Positions 24,448 to 32,006 of a DNA stretch of 64,000 nucleotides are shown one piece after another (positions within the stretch are counted from its first letter, which is position 1; each line of letters opens with the position of its first letter). Source of the DNA: Candidatus Magasanikiibacteriota bacterium (lineage in GTDB: Bacteria > Patescibacteriota > Patescibacteriia > Magasanikbacterales > UBA922); contig WJJZ01000010.1 in the NCBI GenBank assembly GCA_014729395.1, positions 92,544 through 156,543 of the forward strand. The letters are read 5' to 3'. The notes under the pieces were generated by a model, which saw only the letters and a program-made list of their open reading frames with translations, did not search any database and had not been told where the DNA came from. The position numbers were made by a program, and so were the translations under genes.

Positions 24448-25554
24448 TTATTTAATTTCATTGCCTAATTCTGATAAAAGCTTTTTTGCCTTGCGACTTA
24501 CTCTCTTTGGCACATCCACTATCACTTTCACATATTGATCCCCTCTTCCGCTTCTGTTTAATCTGGGTACACCTAGATTTTTCAACTTAAACTGCTGATG
24601 TGATTGTGTCCCGGCGGGAATAACCAATTTTTTATCCCCATCCAAAGTTTCAATTTCAATTTTATCTCCCAAAACAGCCTGTGAATATGAAATATGCTCT
24701 TCTGTATAAATATCAAACCCTTGGCGTTTGAACTTGGGATCTTCCTTTACATGAACTCTTACATAAAGATCGCCGGGATTGCCATTTATTCCGGCACTCT
24801 CCCCTTTTCCGGCCAAACGAATCGCTTCACCATTATTTATACCGGCCGGAATTTTTACACTGTATTTTGATTCGCTTCTTACTCGTCCATCACCGCCGCA
24901 ATGCTTACAGCTTTTTTCCGGTATCTCACCTTGACCACCACAATCGGGACAATTGGCTACCGACTGCATGGCGCCTAAAATAGTTTGTTGGACTCTCCTC
25001 ACCTGACCTTGACCTTTGCAAGTATCACATTTATTCATTTTGCTCCCCGGTTCAACCCCTGAACCGGTACAGACATCGCAATTATTATTTTTGGTCAATC
25101 TGATTTCCTTTTCAGTACCAAAAACGGCCTCTTTAAAATCAAGCTGAATATCCACTTGAATATCACTACCTCTGTTTCTGCTTCGACCCCGAGAACGACC
25201 GCCAAAACCAAACATATCACCGAACAAATCACCCAAGTCTATACCGCCAAAATCGAAATTTACATTTTGAAAACCACCTCCACCTCCTCGAGCAGCCCGC
25301 ATAAAATCATCCCAACTGGCACCACCGCCAAAACCGCCCTGCTGATCAAAAGTAGAGCCGAACTGATCGTACTGCTTGCGTTTCTCTTCATTCCCAACCA
25401 CTTGAAAAGCTTCATTTACTTCCTTAAACTTTTCTTCATCGCCATCCGGCTTATCCGGATGATATTTGTGAGCAAGTTTTCTAAAAGCTTTTTTTATTTC
25501 ATCTTGCGAGGCGCTTTTTTCTACACCGAGAATTTTATAATAATCTTTAGACAT
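24448..25554 (-). CDS. dnaJ: Chaperone DnaJ
   Basis: J domain with HPD (YYKILGV...HKYHPDK), a G/F-rich region and four CxxCxGxG zinc-finger repeats. Confidence 0.95.
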
Positions 25555-26679: not shown

Positions 26680-28692
<2,013 letters not shown>

Positions 28693-28754
28693 TTATTTAT
28701 TAAGTAATAAATTATGTGAATTAATTTTATAAATATGTTTAATAAAAGACCTTT

Positions 28755-28826
28755 GTCATTCCCGCGAAGGCGGGAATCCAGGAAAACGGACTTTGCATAC
28801 TGGATTCCCGCCTTCGCGGGAATGAC
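28755..28826. repeat. GC-rich nested-palindrome repeat, copy 3, upstream of dnaK
   Basis: Same 27-bp arms with an 18-nt loop. Confidence 0.85.
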
Positions 28827-28944
28827 ACAATTTAAGTAAATTTGATACACAAAAGTTGTCAATTATCATCTCCCGAGTCTTATCTTTGTTTTATCACCAA
28901 AGAATTACCTGATTTTTTAATGTCAAAAATGTATTTTATAGGTT

Positions 28945-29486: not shown

Positions 29487-29933
29487 TTACTTCTTTTCTT
29501 TTTTACTTATTCTTACTTGTACTTTCTTGGCCTTGCTTGGTTCTGCCTTTGGACAAGTAATTTTTAATACTCCATCTTCAAATTCCGCTTTTATCTTATC
29601 TTCTTTTACCGGAGCGGGAAGCGCAACTTGTCGGTAGAAAGAACCGCTACGCATTTCTTTTCTGTAGTAATTTTTTTCTTCCACTTCGTGCTCTTTTTTG
29701 CTTTCTCCTTGAAGAGTCAAAACACCCTTCTCTACGCTTACATCCACATCTTCCGGTCTGATTCCGGCCAACGGTGCCTCGATCACCACGTTATTTTTTT
29801 CTTCATAAACATCTATTGCCGGTACAAAACCTTTCTGCATAGTGGATTTATTATAATTTGATGGAAGACGATTCATCATAGCTTCCATCTCTTCAAAAGG
29901 GTCCCAATTTGGTGACCAACGTATTAGTGACAT
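29487..29933 (-). CDS. Small heat-shock protein (Hsp20/alpha-crystallin family)
   Basis: Alpha-crystallin domain (AIDVYEEKNNVVIEAPLAGIRPEDVDVSVEKGVLTLQGE...FEDGVLKITCPK). A strong SD (GGGAGG) is present. Confidence 0.9.
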   Translation of the reverse strand: MSLIRWSPNWDPFEEMEAMMNRLPSNYNKSTMQKGFVPAIDVYEEKNNVVIEAPLAGIRPEDVDVSVEKGVLTLQGESKKEHEVEEKNYYRKEMRSGSFYRQVALPAPVKEDKIKAEFEDGVLKITCPKAEPSKAKKVQVRISKKEKK

Positions 29934-29946
29934 ATGGATTTCCTCC

Positions 29947-29977
29947 CGTTAACACGTGATCGTTTAATCACGGTTAA
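29947..29977. promoter_or_regulatory. Near-perfect palindrome GTTAACACGTGATCG-TTTAATCACGGTTAAC directly upstream of the hsp20 RBS; candidate operator
   Basis: Read from the sequence: arms of 12-13 nt with one indel, positioned between the likely promoter and the SD. Confidence 0.4.
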
Positions 29978-30005
29978 CTTTTTTAAAAATAAATAAAAAT
30001 TTAAT

Positions 30006-30929
30006 TTACTTAGAAACCACAACCTTTGCCGGCTTTATTACTTTTCCTTTCATCATATATCCGGCTTCCAGTTCCTTGATTACAATTCCGGATTTATATT
30101 CATCCGATTCTTCTTCTCCCACAGCCTCATGCAGCTCCGGATCAAACTCCACACCAACAGTCTCAATTTCCTCAACTTCATGAGCTTCTAAAATAACACC
30201 AAACTGCTTCATTATTTGCTCTACCCCTTGGAACCATTTCTCTTGTTCAGGGTTAAAGTCTGATGGTTGGTAGCCGATAGCCAGTTTAAAATTATTATAA
30301 ACCGGAATAAATTCTTCCAAGACCTGCAGCTCACTCATCTTTACCCAATCACTTTTTCTATCTTCAATTTCTTTTTGTAAATTTTTATAATCCGCCAGAG
30401 CCCTCTGCCAACCCTGCTTTAATTCCCTTTTTTCATCTTCACAGCTTTCACAGCCACTCTTGCTCATGTTTTCATCCTTTTTTCCACAAAAATATTTCTT
30501 AATTATCTCTTTGGTATTTATTTCCACATTTTTGCTGTTTACTGCCTCTTCAGGATCAAACCATTTGTAGCTCGTGCCTTCTGTTTTATCCAAAATAATC
30601 TCTTGATTATCACCCTTTAAGCGAGCTCTATGTTGAAAGCTTATAATATGACTCGATCCATCCTGATATTTTTCCGATTCAATAATGCTTGTGGTTGTAA
30701 GCAAGTCCAGGTCGGTAATATCCAAATTTGTTTCTTCTTTCATCTCACGGATCGCCGCCTCCTCGGGAGTTTCGCCATGCTCTATTTGACCTCCCGGAGG
30801 TATGTACAAATTTTGCCATTTTGGCGAACGTACCAAAAAAATTTGATTATTATCGTTAACTATATAGGCGACGGAAACTACTTTGGGTTTTTTCTGTTTA
30901 TTTTTACTAGGCATATTACTAGTCCTCAA
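30006..30929 (-). CDS. grpE: NUDIX hydrolase-GrpE fusion protein
   Basis: N-terminal NUDIX box (GGQIEHGETPEEAAIREMKEETNL). The C-terminal roughly 150 aa are GrpE-like (long helix, then FDPELHEAV...ESDEY..GIVIKELEAGYMMKGKVIKPAKVVV). Confidence 0.8.
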   Translation of the reverse strand: MRTSNMPSKNKQKKPKVVSVAYIVNDNNQIFLVRSPKWQNLYIPPGGQIEHGETPEEAAIREMKEETNLDITDLDLLTTTSIIESEKYQDGSSHIISFQHRARLKGDNQEIILDKTEGTSYKWFDPEEAVNSKNVEINTKEIIKKYFCGKKDENMSKSGCESCEDEKRELKQGWQRALADYKNLQKEIEDRKSDWVKMSELQVLEEFIPVYNNFKLAIGYQPSDFNPEQEKWFQGVEQIMKQFGVILEAHEVEEIETVGVEFDPELHEAVGEEESDEYKSGIVIKELEAGYMMKGKVIKPAKVVVSK

Positions 30930-31275
30930 TCTTTTTCAGTATTTTCATAATTTCATTGTAATGTTTTTCTATAACATCTTTTTGTCTAAAATTTTTAGCA
31001 AATTCAGCCAATTTATCACAAACTTTAATAATATCTTCTTTCTCGGGATTATCAAAATCAGCACCCAAGTCTTCAAATTTTTGCCTCACCATCATTTCCA
31101 CATCCAAACTCTTTATTTTATCAAACTCCTGATCGCTTTCTTTTTTATAACCATAGTCCCTCATATCTTCTAAAACCTCGTTATGTGCTTCTTTAAAACA
31201 CTCCATCACCGCATCTCTAGCCATGATTGGTGTTACCTTCTTGGATAAGTCACAACCATATATTTTATACCCCAT
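30919..31275 (-). CDS. Hypothetical protein (118 aa) between hrcA and grpE
   Basis: ORF with no recognisable motif. It lies in the same orientation and is tightly packed within the heat-shock operon. Confidence 0.5.
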   Translation of the reverse strand: MGYKIYGCDLSKKVTPIMARDAVMECFKEAHNEVLEDMRDYGYKKESDQEFDKIKSLDVEMMVRQKFEDLGADFDNPEKEDIIKVCDKLAEFAKNFRQKDVIEKHYNEIMKILKKIED

Positions 31276-31283
31276 ATATTTAA

Positions 31284-32006
31284 TTAATTATTAAAAATAC
31301 TTTGAATAAAATTTAATAAATTATAATTTCTATGATAATTCATTCGAATTGGTCCCAATACTGTCAAAATATCGTTATTTCCCAAACCGGCAATCATTGA
31401 GCTTGATACTGATCCAAAAGGACTATCACTTCCGATTAAAATTTTTACTTTTTCATTTTTAGATATACTGTATAAATCCTCAACCTTATCCTCTACTTCG
31501 TCAAAAATACTGGAAAAACTTAAAACTCTTTTATACTCACGAAATTCCGGCTGACTAAATAAATTACTCAAACCGGTATAATAAATCGAAGTTCCATCAA
31601 AAGCGATAATAACAGCACAATTACATAAATTAGCTAGATATTTGGCAATTTTCTTCTTATTTTCTTTTGTAGAATTTTTTTTATCAATCAGTTTCTTAAT
31701 TTGCGTACAGACTACATCATCCGGTTTATTTTTTTCCAAAATATTTTCAATATAATACTTATAGCCCTTTTCAGTGGGAATGCGACCGGCTGATGTATGA
31801 GGTTGAGATAAAAAACCCTCTTTTTCCATATCTCGCATCTCATTCCTCAAAGTGGCACCGCTCACACCCAAACCGCCTTTTTCAGCTAAAAATTTCGAAC
31901 CAACGGGATCTGTGTTTAATACATAGTTATCCACAATCAATTTTAGTATTTTTTCTCTACGTTTTTTCATATTATCACTCTTAACCTTCGAGTGATAATA
32001 TACCAT
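31284..32006 (-). CDS. hrcA: Heat-inducible transcription repressor HrcA (short form); true start probably the internal Met at 31970
   Basis: N-terminal wHTH (ILKLIVDNYVLNTDPVGSKFL...SGATLRNEMRDMEKEGFLSQPHTSAGRIPTEKGYKYYI) and a C-terminal ...GPIRMNYHRNY. The promoter (-35 at 32020-32025, -10 at 31997-32002) lies downstream of the first ATG. Confidence 0.8.
   Translation of the reverse strand: MVYYHSKVKSDNMKKRREKILKLIVDNYVLNTDPVGSKFLAEKGGLGVSGATLRNEMRDMEKEGFLSQPHTSAGRIPTEKGYKYYIENILEKNKPDDVVCTQIKKLIDKKNSTKENKKKIAKYLANLCNCAVIIAFDGTSIYYTGLSNLFSQPEFREYKRVLSFSSIFDEVEDKVEDLYSISKNEKVKILIGSDSPFGSVSSSMIAGLGNNDILTVLGPIRMNYHRNYNLLNFIQSIFNN
31972..31998. promoter_or_regulatory. CIRCE-like inverted repeat TTATCACTC-N9-GAGTGATAA (consensus TTAGCACTC-N9-GAGTGCTAA) overlapping the hrcA -10 and transcription start
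   Basis: 16 of 18 positions match the CIRCE consensus, with symmetric substitutions and the exact 9-nt spacer. It sits immediately after the TTGACA-17-TATATT promoter on the minus strand. Confidence 0.55.

What the first reader, a model, noticed from the sequence alone, without database searches (positions are those of the whole stretch)
30006..30929. GrpE fused to an N-terminal NUDIX hydrolase domain
The only GrpE homolog in the heat-shock block carries a complete NUDIX box (G-x5-E-x7-REMKEETNL) in its first roughly 150 aa, in place of the usual disordered N-terminus. Its C-terminal half is unmistakably GrpE (FDPELHEAV...ESDEY...GYMMKGKVIKPAKVVV). NUDIX enzymes hydrolyse nucleoside diphosphate derivatives. 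A covalent fusion to the DnaK nucleotide-exchange factor suggests a coupling between nucleotide or alarmone hydrolysis and Hsp70 cycling. I am not aware of this as a described architecture.
Basis: partly seen in the sequence, partly recalled or inferred. Interest (0 to 1): 0.6.

Follow-up and report, generated by a model that had tools for sequence, protein, structure and literature searches.

The report
GrpE co-chaperone carrying a NUDIX hydrolase
The heat-shock operon of this Magasanikbacteria (Patescibacteria) genome encodes a real and widely conserved GrpE, the factor that resets the DnaK chaperone, whose floppy N-terminal tail is replaced by an apparently intact nucleotide-cleaving NUDIX domain. 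I found no paper describing this architecture, and its function is untested.

Summary
The ORF at 30006-30929 (minus strand; probable ATG at 30914, 302 aa) has a full-length Pfam NUDIX domain (E 3e-23) followed by a full-length GrpE domain (E 5e-38).

It is not an assembly artefact. At least 117 distinct 90%-identity clusters and 35 of the 80 best-matching species-representative genomes retrieved carry the same single ORF. The NUDIX box is strict in 35/35 and dN/dS is 0.04-0.10.

The gene occupies the grpE slot of a CIRCE-preceded hrcA-grpE-hsp20-dnaK-dnaJ block.

New findings:
- **The NUDIX module is accessory and swappable.** Sister species with 93-97% identical DnaK have a GrpE with a 20-60 aa acidic tail instead. 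NUDIX and GrpE-core histories disagree (for example 51% versus 92% identity in one pair).
- **Other modules occupy the same position.** Relatives carry two NUDIX domains, an HD phosphohydrolase (also hrcA-HD-grpE-dnaK) or DUF1653.
- **The domains look independent.** AlphaFold2 gives a confident minimal NUDIX fold joined by a floppy linker to the N-terminal end of the GrpE stalk, away from the domain that contacts the DnaK nucleotide cleft.

Substrate and any coupling to DnaK are untested. My best guess is a heat-shock-regulated nucleotide-sanitising or alarmone-hydrolysing enzyme tethered to the DnaK machine. No literature on the fusion was found. It is a new variant of a known kind, of moderate to high interest.

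The parts
30006..30914 (-). Complete NUDIX-GrpE coding sequence (302 aa plus TAA stop at 30006-30008), starting at the ATG at 30914. The mechanical ORF extends to a TTG at 30929.
   Evidence: Identical to the 302-aa NCBI protein P0001.
30923..30927 (-). Shine-Dalgarno-like GAGGA 8 nt upstream of the ATG, inside the last codons of orf118 (whose stop TAG is at 30919-30921).
   Evidence: Read directly from the sequence.
30498..30884 (-). NUDIX hydrolase domain (residues 11-139 in 302-aa numbering).
   Evidence: Pfam PF00293, E 3.2e-23. AlphaFold2 pLDDT about 96. Foldseek TM 0.80-0.85 to 4kyx, 5gp0, 6ypf and 1vc8.
30723..30791 (-). NUDIX box GQIEHGETPEEAAIREMKEETNL (G42...L64), holding the metal-binding and catalytic residues E48, R56, E57, E60 and E61.
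   Evidence: Invariant or at least 90% conserved in 30 aligned fusion proteins. The strict box is present in 35/35 species representatives.
30453..30497 (-). Lys-rich flexible linker (residues 140-154) between the NUDIX domain and the GrpE stalk.
   Evidence: pLDDT below 50 for residues 146-155 and pTM 0.49. This is the variable, gapped region of the alignment.
30441..30452 (-). CxxC motif (C155-E-S-C158) at the N-terminal end of the GrpE stalk helix.
   Evidence: Present in 15/35 fused and 31/45 unfused relatives.
30183..30449 (-). GrpE helical part: long stalk helix plus four-helix-bundle helices (residues 156-214 and 222-244). It includes G230, the equivalent of E. coli G122.
   Evidence: AlphaFold2 secondary structure. 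Pfam GrpE match. Alignment to 1dkg, 4ani and 3a6m. G230 is invariant.
30012..30176 (-). GrpE C-terminal beta-domain (residues 247-301). In known DnaK-GrpE structures this is the part that inserts into the DnaK nucleotide-binding domain.
   Evidence: The role is inferred from the established structures 1DKG and 4ANI.
31972..31998 (.). CIRCE-like operator TTATCACTC-N9-GAGTGATAA, immediately upstream of the probable hrcA start.
   Evidence: 0 of 100 shuffles gave a match. The same element lies upstream of hrcA in 70 of 86 related loci.
31284..31970 (-). hrcA (heat-shock repressor), first gene of the operon. The probable start is the ATG at 31970; the longer ORF starting at 32006 would read through CIRCE.
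   Evidence: Pfam HrcA PF01628, E 1.4e-12.
30919..31275 (-). orf118, a 118-aa ORF of unknown family wedged between hrcA and NUDIX-grpE.
   Evidence: No homologue in 80 related loci.
29487..29933 (-). hsp20 (small heat-shock protein), 72 nt downstream of grpE.
   Evidence: Pfam HSP20, E 1e-23.
26680..28680 (-). dnaK, the Hsp70 partner of GrpE.
   Evidence: translation. Used as the phylogenetic marker.
24448..25554 (-). dnaJ (J domain, CXXCXGXG zinc domain and C-terminal domain).

Best explanation
This is the genome's operon-encoded housekeeping GrpE. In one Patescibacteria lineage (Magasanikbacteria and relatives), a minimal single-domain NUDIX pyrophosphohydrolase has been inserted into, and largely replaces, the acidic disordered N-terminal tail.

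**GrpE half.** Residues 156-302 form the stalk helix, four-helix bundle and beta-domain. I infer that this half works as an ordinary dimeric nucleotide-exchange factor for the adjacent DnaK.

**NUDIX half.** Residues 11-139 keep every catalytic residue and are under purifying selection. I infer an active Mg2+-dependent hydrolase of a nucleoside-diphosphate-X compound.

**Geometry.** The two halves are joined by a flexible Lys-rich linker. In the parallel GrpE dimer, two NUDIX domains would therefore hang side by side at the distal end of the stalk, where other GrpEs carry the tail that reaches the DnaK substrate-binding domain. That is not next to the nucleotide cleft.

**Regulation.** The protein is made from a CIRCE-preceded (presumably HrcA-controlled) operon, so the hydrolase would be produced in fixed stoichiometry with the chaperone machinery and induced by heat stress.

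**Most likely role (inferred, not shown).** I think it is an accessory, exchangeable stress module that destroys a non-canonical or inhibitory nucleotide close to DnaK. Candidates are Ap4A and related dinucleoside polyphosphates, oxidised or otherwise damaged NTPs, and ADP-ribose. GrpE-emptied DnaK would then reload with clean ATP. I do not think it is a step in ADP release itself.

**Evolution.** The module behaves as a cassette. It is gained, lost or exchanged between close relatives, probably by homologous recombination through the conserved hrcA and grpE-core flanks. It can be duplicated, or substituted by an HD phosphohydrolase.
For: **Domains.** Pfam calls both domains at full length. 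The GrpE half aligns to the solved GrpEs 4ani, 3a6m and 1dkg, and the NUDIX half to AtNUDX1, Rickettsia MutT and E. coli MutT.

**Structure.** The AlphaFold2 model gives the NUDIX domain a pLDDT of about 96 and the linker (146-155) below 50. It shows a 59-residue helix and a beta-domain, with pTM 0.49. Foldseek TM scores to minimal NUDIX enzymes are 0.80-0.85.

**Not an artefact.** 117 of the best 120 database clusters carry PF00293 plus PF01025. About 36 clusters at 50% identity do so. 35 species-representative genomes have it as a single ORF.

**Catalytic competence.** G42, E48, R56 and E60 are invariant, and E57 and E61 are at least 90% conserved. The strict box occurs in 35/35. In pairs where synonymous sites are not saturated, NUDIX dN/dS is 0.04-0.10.

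**Operon and regulation.** The order is hrcA, orf118, NUDIX-grpE, hsp20, dnaK, dnaJ. CIRCE lies at 31972-31998 and in 70/86 related loci.

**Accessory, cassette-like behaviour.**
- Fused and unfused species are interleaved on a 625-column DnaK tree.
- Sister pairs have DnaK 93-97% identical and GrpE core 75-82% identical, yet differ in NUDIX versus a 20-60 aa acidic tail. Both forms share the MTDEQ-like start and the 'FFGKxCKxCE' junction.
- GrpE-core distances track DnaK distances (rho 0.85), whereas NUDIX distances do so only weakly (rho 0.37).
- In L011/L013 the GrpE core is 92% identical and the NUDIX domain 51%. In L022/L024 the values are 68% and 81%.

**Phosphohydrolase theme.**
- NUDIX-NUDIX-GrpE exists (P0150, P0174).
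- HD-GrpE exists (P0169, P0266, P0267) with an invariant H..HD..H..D motif, in an hrcA-HD-grpE-dnaK context.

**Published link.** Ap4A binds DnaK, GroEL and ClpB (Johnstone & Farr 1991, as cited in PMC7705103).
Against: - No substrate can be assigned. The scores fall below the cutoffs of every NCBIfam equivalog (MutT 45.7 against 97.9; NudB 37.2 against 103), and the structural neighbours span many specificities.
- The module is dispensable in sister species with nearly identical DnaK, so nothing shows that it acts on DnaK-related nucleotides at all.
- The attachment point is at the far end of the stalk, which does not favour capturing nucleotide leaving the cleft.
- A third, non-enzymatic-looking module (DUF1653) also occurs at this position. 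The GrpE N-terminus may therefore simply tolerate additions.
- The monomer model says nothing about the dimer or the DnaK complex.
- The NJ trees are on short, divergent domains, and several dS values are saturated.
- I could not scan whole genomes for a second grpE or for compensating stand-alone NUDIX genes.
Confidence: 0.45

Rival explanations
1. Co-expression only ('Rosetta stone' without spatial coupling). An ordinary housecleaning NUDIX enzyme, of the kind JGI annotates as 'nucleoside triphosphatase', was captured by the heat-shock operon. It was fused to GrpE only because that gives stress-inducible expression, and perhaps a dimerisation scaffold, in a tiny genome with few regulators. 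It acts on the bulk nucleotide pool, independently of DnaK.
For: - The linker is flexible and pTM is low.
- Presence or absence differs between species with 93-97% identical DnaK.
- The domain belongs to a widespread family of stand-alone NUDIX proteins of about 139 aa in Patescibacteria, Chloroflexi and Woesearchaeota. These are 31-33% identical to it, and JGI labels them 'nucleoside triphosphatase'.
- CIRCE control of the operon is conserved.
Against: - Placing the gene in the operon would achieve co-regulation without a fusion. Yet none of the 45 unfused loci has a separate NUDIX gene of this kind near grpE.
- The same attachment point has independently received an HD phosphohydrolase and a second NUDIX copy. 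That suggests selection for being on GrpE.
Confidence: 0.3
2. One reading: the NUDIX domain hydrolyses the ADP (or ATP) handled by DnaK, making nucleotide exchange irreversible or tuning it.
For: GrpE is the ADP-release factor and NUDIX enzymes cleave nucleoside diphosphate derivatives (established knowledge). The catalytic residues are conserved.
Against: - Plain ADP is generally a poor NUDIX substrate, and destroying ATP next to an ATP-dependent chaperone would be counter-productive (established knowledge).
- The domain hangs from the distal end of the stalk (helix 156-214, of which roughly the first 35-40 residues form the free stalk and the rest joins the four-helix bundle), about 5-9 nm from the beta-domain that contacts the cleft (with the 1DKG and 4ANI geometry).
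- Sister species do without it although their DnaK is unchanged.
Confidence: 0.07
3. Regulatory or structural replacement of the tail. The NUDIX domain acts mainly as a ligand sensor or a steric module. It would modulate substrate release from the DnaK substrate-binding domain, or the thermosensing stalk, in the way NUDIX domains serve as ligand-binding modules in NrtR-type regulators.
For: - It replaces exactly the acidic tail of close relatives. In E. coli GrpE that tail influences substrate release (established knowledge).
- It abuts the stalk and a CxxC motif.
- DUF1653, which has no known enzymatic function, occurs at the same site.
Against: The full catalytic box is retained in 35/35 species, with dN/dS 0.04-0.10, whereas sensor-type NUDIX domains commonly lose catalytic residues. 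The analogous HD module also keeps its metal-binding motif.
Confidence: 0.12
4. Conflict-driven module. The rapid swapping of N-terminal modules on GrpE reflects an arms race with phages or other mobile elements that depend on the host DnaK-GrpE system. An example would be a NUDIX or HD domain degrading a phage- or defence-related nucleotide signal.
For: Presence/absence polymorphism, mosaicism and module replacement between close relatives resemble the turnover seen at conflict loci. grpE was originally defined as a host factor for phage lambda (established knowledge).
Against: There are no defence or mobile-element genes in the conserved neighbourhood. Purifying rather than diversifying selection acts within each NUDIX lineage. 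I did not run a PADLOC scan.
Confidence: 0.05
5. Sequencing or assembly artefact (a frameshift or chimera joining two genes).
For: None found.
Against: The same uninterrupted ORF occurs in at least 117 protein clusters from NCBI, JGI, ENA and Logan assemblies and in 35 species-level genomes. The junction is conserved and both halves are under purifying selection.
Confidence: 0.01

Closest known systems
Canonical bacterial GrpE (E. coli 1DKG; Geobacillus kaustophilus 4ANI; Thermus 3A6M)
   Same: - Full-length PF01025 match.
- Long stalk helix, helical bundle and C-terminal beta-domain.
- Invariant glycine equivalent to E. coli G122.
- Position in an hrcA-grpE-dnaK operon with CIRCE.
   Different: The disordered N-terminal tail of about 30-60 aa is replaced by a folded NUDIX domain of about 130 aa. 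Many members, including this one, have a CxxC motif at the start of the stalk.
Minimal single-domain NUDIX hydrolases (Arabidopsis NUDX1 5GP0, Rickettsia felis 'MutT' 4KYX, Thermus Ndx1 Ap6A hydrolase 1VC8, E. coli MutT and NudI/YfaO)
   Same: Same fold (TM 0.74-0.85), complete NUDIX box and similar size. It is related (31-33% identity) to a widespread stand-alone family of about 139 aa.
   Different: It is covalently attached to a co-chaperone. It scores below the cutoff of every NCBIfam equivalog (MutT, NudB). The substrate is unknown.
HD-GrpE of other Patescibacteria
   Same: A phosphohydrolase domain of about 150 aa is fused to the N-terminus of GrpE at the same junction, in the same hrcA-X-grpE-dnaK slot, with CIRCE upstream.
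   Different: The catalytic fold is unrelated (HD metal-dependent phosphohydrolase, nearest to PRK10119/YedJ-type). The family is far rarer (three 90% clusters).
Other bifunctional NUDIX fusions (for example NadM-Nudix, 2QJT; NrtR regulators)
   Same: A NUDIX module is appended to a protein of a different function. 2qjt appears as a weak sequence hit.
   Different: In those cases the partner is a metabolic enzyme or a DNA-binding domain from the same pathway (NAD metabolism). Here the partner is a chaperone nucleotide-exchange factor, and no shared pathway is established.

Membership tests
GrpE (PF01025), nucleotide-exchange factor of DnaK | Profile match above the curated threshold over the whole domain | tested here: met
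   130.8 bits against a cutoff of 25.8, profile 12-165/165. The best PDB hits are 4ani (1.4e-17), 3a6m and 1dkg.
GrpE (PF01025), nucleotide-exchange factor of DnaK | Architecture: long N-terminal helix, helical bundle and C-terminal beta-sheet domain | tested here: met
   The AlphaFold2 model has helices 156-214 and 222-244 and strands at 247-301, with pLDDT 72-92. Foldseek hits to 4ani, 9bls and 9a81.
GrpE (PF01025), nucleotide-exchange factor of DnaK | Conserved functional residues (the equivalent of E. coli G122, and the DP..HEA motif of the beta-domain) | tested here: met
   G230, P259 and E263 are invariant and H262 is at least 90% conserved across 30 fusion proteins. G230 aligns with position 122 of 1dkg.
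GrpE (PF01025), nucleotide-exchange factor of DnaK | Genomic context with hrcA, dnaK and dnaJ under CIRCE | tested here: met
   Unfused orthologues occupy the same slot in sister species.
GrpE (PF01025), nucleotide-exchange factor of DnaK | Homodimerisation and acceleration of ADP release from DnaK | not testable with these tools
   This needs biochemistry. Only a monomer could be modelled.
NCBIfam GrpE equivalogs (PRK14140 and others) | Score above the equivalog cutoff | tested here: not met
   The best score is 92.9 bits against a cutoff of 137. This is a divergent Patescibacteria GrpE. It is a member of the Pfam family but not of any curated equivalog.
NUDIX hydrolase superfamily (PF00293) | Profile match above threshold | tested here: met
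   82.6 bits against a cutoff of 21.1, profile 4-132/134.
NUDIX hydrolase superfamily (PF00293) | NUDIX box G-x5-E-x7-R-E-U-x-E-E-x-G-U with the catalytic glutamates | tested here: met
   G42, E48, R56, E57, E60 and E61 are all present. The penultimate G is N in this protein and G in the family consensus. The strict box is present in 35/35 species representatives.
NUDIX hydrolase superfamily (PF00293) | Alpha/beta/alpha sandwich NUDIX fold | tested here: met
   pLDDT about 96. TM 0.80-0.85 and rmsd 2.0-2.6 A to 4kyx, 5gp0, 6ypf and 1vc8.
NUDIX hydrolase superfamily (PF00293) | Mg2+/Mn2+-dependent pyrophosphohydrolase activity on a nucleoside diphosphate-X substrate | not testable with these tools
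   Supported only indirectly, by dN/dS of 0.04-0.10.
MutT 8-oxo-dGTP diphosphatase (TIGR00586 / PRK10776) | Equivalog score cutoff | tested here: not met
   45.7 bits against 97.9, and 41.5 against 148. Only the N-terminal half, including the box, aligns.
NudB dihydroneopterin triphosphate diphosphatase (PRK09438) | Equivalog score cutoff | tested here: not met
   37.2 bits against 103.
NUDIX Ap(n)A hydrolases | Specificity signature downstream of the box (a tyrosine about 16-18 residues after it, as I recall from Dunn et al. 1999) and demonstrated Ap4A cleavage | tested here: inconclusive
   An aromatic residue (Y83, or F in some members) lies 19 residues after the box. The structural matches to 3i7u and 1vc8 are no better than those to other specificities.

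The most novel reading that the evidence does not exclude
In Patescibacteria, the N-terminus of GrpE is a hot-swappable docking site for nucleotide (pyro)phosphohydrolases: NUDIX, tandem NUDIX or HD. These enzymes would edit the nucleotides available to DnaK at the moment GrpE empties it, for example by degrading Ap4A-type alarmones or damaged ATP that would otherwise occupy the Hsp70 nucleotide site. That would be a previously unrecognised enzymatic layer of Hsp70 regulation. It would also give a natural handle on the decades-old question of whether Ap4A binding to DnaK has physiological meaning.
Probability: 0.2. Interest if true: 0.8.

Novelty: new variant of a known kind. Interest (0 to 1): 0.6.

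Why it matters
As far as I know, no Hsp70 nucleotide-exchange factor is known to carry a nucleotide-degrading enzyme. Here one does, in at least 117 sequence clusters from an uncultured phylum with minimal genomes. An unrelated phosphohydrolase fold (HD) has been recruited to the same spot.

If the enzyme acts on nucleotides that compete for DnaK, this would show that cells can police the chaperone's nucleotide supply locally. It would also connect the old observation that the heat-shock 'alarmone' Ap4A binds DnaK to a dedicated enzyme.

If the fusion serves co-regulation only, it is still useful in three ways:
- It shows how reduced genomes wire a housecleaning enzyme into the heat-shock regulon.
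- It shows that the GrpE tail is a recombination-exchangeable cassette.
- Natural fused and unfused pairs with near-identical DnaK provide ready-made controls for experiments.

There is also a practical point. These proteins are annotated only as 'GrpE', so the NUDIX function is invisible in current annotation.

Tried and rejected
- **NJ tree of the GrpE core alone.** Fused and unfused sequences were interleaved, but 145 residues is too short to trust. I replaced it with a 625-column DnaK tree.
- **All-pairs dN/dS script.** It timed out. I reran it on 10 chosen pairs. Several dS values are saturated, so only three pairs are quoted for omega.
- **Context of the stand-alone NUDIX P0230 (43% identical).** The only contig is 684 bp, so there is no usable context. 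The HD-GrpE P0169 is on a 1-kb contig, so context came from P0267 instead.
- **Search for a split nudix + grpE arrangement as a fusion precursor.** None of the 45 unfused loci has this type of NUDIX within about 5 kb. L048 has only a fragment, about 5 kb away on the other strand.
- **Internal start.** Met150, preceded by AAGGA, could in principle give a NUDIX-less GrpE. The Met is not conserved in the family, so I set this aside.
- **Taxonomy of the most divergent fusions via cluster members.** Almost none carry names.
- **AlphaFold-database fold search for full-length matches.** The library was unavailable.
- **Palindrome between grpE and hsp20.** It is not conserved in relatives.
- **Substrate assignment from sequence or structure.** Nothing discriminates between specificities.
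- **Literature.** Seven full-text searches found nothing on the fusion or on a CxxC in GrpE.
Full report
**1. What is at the coordinates**

The window has an ORF at 30006..30929 on the minus strand, 307 aa from a TTG. The likelier start is the ATG at 30914, giving 302 aa. It is preceded by GAGGA (30923-30927), and it sits 5 nt after the stop of the upstream orf118. The 302-aa product is identical to an NCBI MAG protein named only 'nucleotide exchange factor GrpE [Candidatus Magasanikbacteria bacterium]'.

Pfam finds two full-length domains (307-aa ORF numbering; subtract 5 for the 302-aa numbering used below):
- NUDIX PF00293 (residues 16-144, E 3.2e-23).
- GrpE PF01025 (residues 152-307, E 5.2e-38).

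The NUDIX box GQIEHGETPEEAAIREMKEETNL has every catalytic residue. The only departure from consensus is N for the penultimate G. No other GrpE or NUDIX box exists in the 64-kb window.

**2. Not an artefact**

- A search of 5.8 billion proteins returned 466 relatives. Of the best 120 clusters, 117 carry both Pfam domains, are 266-403 aa long and 37-53% identical, and come from NCBI, JGI, ENA and Logan assemblies.
- An exhaustive HMMER search of 50%-identity representatives shows about 36 fusion clusters among the best 150.
- In one-genome-per-species contigs, 35 of the 80 best loci have the fusion as one uninterrupted ORF. This ranking favours full-length matches, so it is not a prevalence estimate.
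- The record titles that name a lineage say Magasanikbacteria or Patescibacteria. Many TPA assemblies are titled 'uncultured Gammaproteobacteria', which I take to be mislabelled because they nest among the others in the DnaK tree.

**3. Both halves look functional**

In an alignment of 30 fusion proteins, G42, E48, R56 and E60 are invariant. E57 and E61 are at least 90% conserved, as are many GrpE positions, including G230, the counterpart of E. coli G122. The strict motif G-x5-E-x7-RE-x2-EE is present in 35/35 species representatives.

For pairs whose synonymous sites are not saturated, NUDIX dN/dS is 0.04-0.10, similar to the GrpE half at 0.07-0.15.

AlphaFold2 with this alignment gives:
- a very confident NUDIX fold (residues 10-141, pLDDT about 96);
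- a low-confidence linker (146-155);
- a 59-residue helix (156-214) and a second helix (222-244);
- a beta-domain;
- pTM 0.49, meaning no fixed relation between the two halves in the monomer.

Foldseek matches the N-terminal half to minimal NUDIX enzymes of many specificities: 4kyx, AtNUDX1 5gp0, Rosa NUDX1, Ndx1 Ap6A hydrolase, MutT, NUDT15 and GDP-mannose hydrolase, with TM up to 0.85. It matches the C-terminal half to GrpE structures.

NCBIfam equivalogs for MutT and NudB are hit only below their cutoffs. The substrate therefore cannot be called.

**4. Context**

On the minus strand the order is:
- yidC-like and SPFH genes;
- a CIRCE-like operator (31972-31998, TTATCACTC-N9-GAGTGATAA; 0/100 shuffles gave a match);
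- hrcA, then orf118, then NUDIX-grpE, then hsp20;
- a spacer;
- dnaK, two small ORFs, then dnaJ.

CIRCE lies upstream of hrcA in 70 of 86 related loci. The fusion is therefore the grpE of a classical CIRCE-preceded heat-shock operon, presumably under HrcA control.

**5. The NUDIX module is accessory and exchangeable (new)**

The other 45 loci have a 170-230 aa GrpE in the same slot, with no NUDIX gene of this type within about 5 kb. On a 625-column DnaK tree, fused and unfused species are interleaved down to very short branches.

| Pair (fused / unfused) | DnaK identity | GrpE core identity |
|---|---|---|
| L005 / L035 | 97% | 79% |
| L022 / L077 | 96% | 75% |
| L002 / L059 | 93% | 82% |

Pairwise alignments show the same M(T/S)DEQ-like start and the same 'K-rich, FFGKxCKxCE, EEYKxGWQRALADY' junction in both forms. 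Between these lies either about 130 aa of NUDIX domain or a 20-60 aa acidic low-complexity tail.

GrpE-core distances follow DnaK distances (Spearman 0.85), whereas NUDIX distances do so only weakly (0.37). Individual pairs are strongly discordant in both directions:

| Pair | GrpE core identity | NUDIX identity |
|---|---|---|
| L011 / L013 | 92% | 51% |
| L008 / L015 | 73% | 35% |
| L022 / L024 | 68% | 81% |
| L008 / L017 | 83% | 95% |

The NUDIX tree also disagrees with the DnaK tree.

The shared junction argues for one origin. I infer that this was followed by loss and allelic exchange, probably by homologous recombination through the conserved hrcA and grpE-core flanks.

**6. Other modules at the same position (new)**

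- NUDIX-NUDIX-GrpE: P0150 and P0174, about 448 aa. P0150 is seen on 8 contigs of up to 391 kb, and P0174 lies downstream of hrcA.
- HD-GrpE: P0169, P0266 and P0267, 52-56% identical to one another, from three data sources. The H..HD..H..D motif is invariant, and on independent contigs the order is hrcA, HD-grpE, dnaK, with CIRCE upstream.
- DUF1653-GrpE: about 205 aa, at least five clusters.

Two unrelated metal-dependent phosphohydrolase folds at the same junction is the strongest indication that hydrolase chemistry, and not merely bulk, is being recruited to GrpE.

**7. Mechanism**

*Shown:* the domain composition, the conservation of catalytic residues, the operon and operator, the flexible tether and the cassette-like evolution.

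*Inferred from established GrpE structures (1DKG, 4ANI):* GrpE is a parallel dimer. Its beta-domains and bundle engage the DnaK nucleotide-binding domain. Its N-termini lie together at the far end of the stalk, near the DnaK substrate-binding domain.

Two NUDIX domains would therefore sit side by side about 5-9 nm from the nucleotide cleft. That geometry, the dispensability of the module in sister species, and the poor fit of ADP or ATP as useful NUDIX substrates all make direct participation in ADP release unlikely.

My preferred reading (confidence about 0.45) is a stress-induced, DnaK-proximal sanitising or alarmone-degrading enzyme. Ap4A is an attractive candidate because it accumulates on heat shock and was reported to bind DnaK, GroEL and ClpB (Johnstone & Farr 1991, as cited in PMC7705103). 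Nothing here tests that.

The main rival (about 0.3) is simple co-regulation and scaffolding, with no spatial meaning. The domain belongs to a widespread stand-alone family of about 139 aa that JGI annotates as 'nucleoside triphosphatase'.

Lesser rivals are:
- a sensor or tail-replacement role (0.12);
- a conflict-driven module (0.05);
- an artefact (0.01).

**8. Comparison with the known, and novelty**

The protein passes the tested membership criteria of Pfam GrpE and Pfam NUDIX. It fails the equivalog cutoffs for the curated GrpE, MutT and NudB families.

I found no publication on a NUDIX-GrpE or HD-GrpE architecture, or on a CxxC in GrpE, in 8 million full texts. The proteins do exist in public databases under the plain name GrpE.

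I classify it as a new variant of a known kind: a known exchange factor with an unprecedented and interchangeable enzymatic N-terminal module. Interest is 0.6. An Hsp70 specialist would be surprised, and natural fused/unfused pairs make the question directly testable. Function remains conjecture.

**9. Limits**

- Whole genomes could not be scanned for a second grpE or for compensating NUDIX genes.
- Only a monomer was modelled.
- The trees are neighbour-joining, some on short and divergent domains.
- Several dS estimates are saturated.
- The AlphaFold-database library was unavailable.

Noticed in passing
window 30919-31275 (-): orf118 is a 118-aa ORF inserted between hrcA and NUDIX-grpE, with its stop 5 nt before the grpE ATG. 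It matches no Pfam or NCBIfam family (only a sub-threshold DUF7326 hit). It has no homologue in any of the 80 related loci, where hrcA abuts grpE directly.
   Followed up: partly
window 30441-30452 (-); also L035, L059, L077 and others: A CxxC motif lies at the very start of the GrpE stalk helix, within a conserved 'FFGKxCKxCE' junction. It is present in 15/35 fused and 31/45 unfused relatives. In a parallel GrpE dimer, four cysteines would come together, which could form an inter-subunit zinc or redox clamp on the thermosensor stalk. I found no literature on this.
   Followed up: partly
L083 5001-5918; L084 807-1724; L082 34-957 (proteins P0267, P0169, P0266): HD-domain phosphohydrolase fused to GrpE at the same junction, in hrcA-HD-grpE-dnaK operons of other Patescibacteria. 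The H..HD..H..D motif is invariant.
   Followed up: partly
L086 1591-2934 (P0174); P0150: NUDIX-NUDIX-GrpE proteins of about 448 aa with two tandem NUDIX domains. P0174 lies downstream of hrcA (L086). P0150 is seen on 8 contigs of up to 391 kb.
   Followed up: partly
proteins P0326, P0328, P0344, P0361, P0369 (no locus fetched): DUF1653 (PF07866)-GrpE fusions of about 205-222 aa in Patescibacteria. This is a third kind of N-terminal module on GrpE.
   Followed up: no
window 31972-31998: A perfectly palindromic CIRCE variant (TTATCACTC-N9-GAGTGATAA) lies inside the mechanically called 5' end of the hrcA ORF, so the true hrcA start is probably the ATG at 31970. The conserved 'VVYYHSK' peptide seen in relatives' stop-to-stop hrcA ORFs (which run upstream of the true start) is CIRCE read in frame.
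   Followed up: yes
window about 28760-28835: A GC-rich palindromic element (…CATTCCCGCGAAGGCGGGAATCC…GGATTCCCGCCTTCGCGGGAATG…) sits in the AT-rich spacer upstream of dnaK. It creates a spurious ORF (28689..28862; 'VIPAKAGIQ…RLRGNDK'). It resembles a dispersed repeat or a structured element.
   Followed up: no
window 29948-29978: An inverted repeat, GTTAAC-(A)CGTGAT-N6-ATCACG-GTTAAC, lies between the grpE stop and the hsp20 ribosome-binding site. It could be an operator or an attenuator for hsp20. The core pattern was not found in any of the 86 related loci, and it occurs by chance in 8% of shuffles at one mismatch.
   Followed up: partly
L001-L080 record titles: Many TPA MAGs titled 'uncultured Gammaproteobacteria bacterium' carry Magasanikbacteria-type hrcA-grpE-dnaK loci and nest within that group in the DnaK tree. 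The titles look like placeholder mislabels.
   Followed up: no
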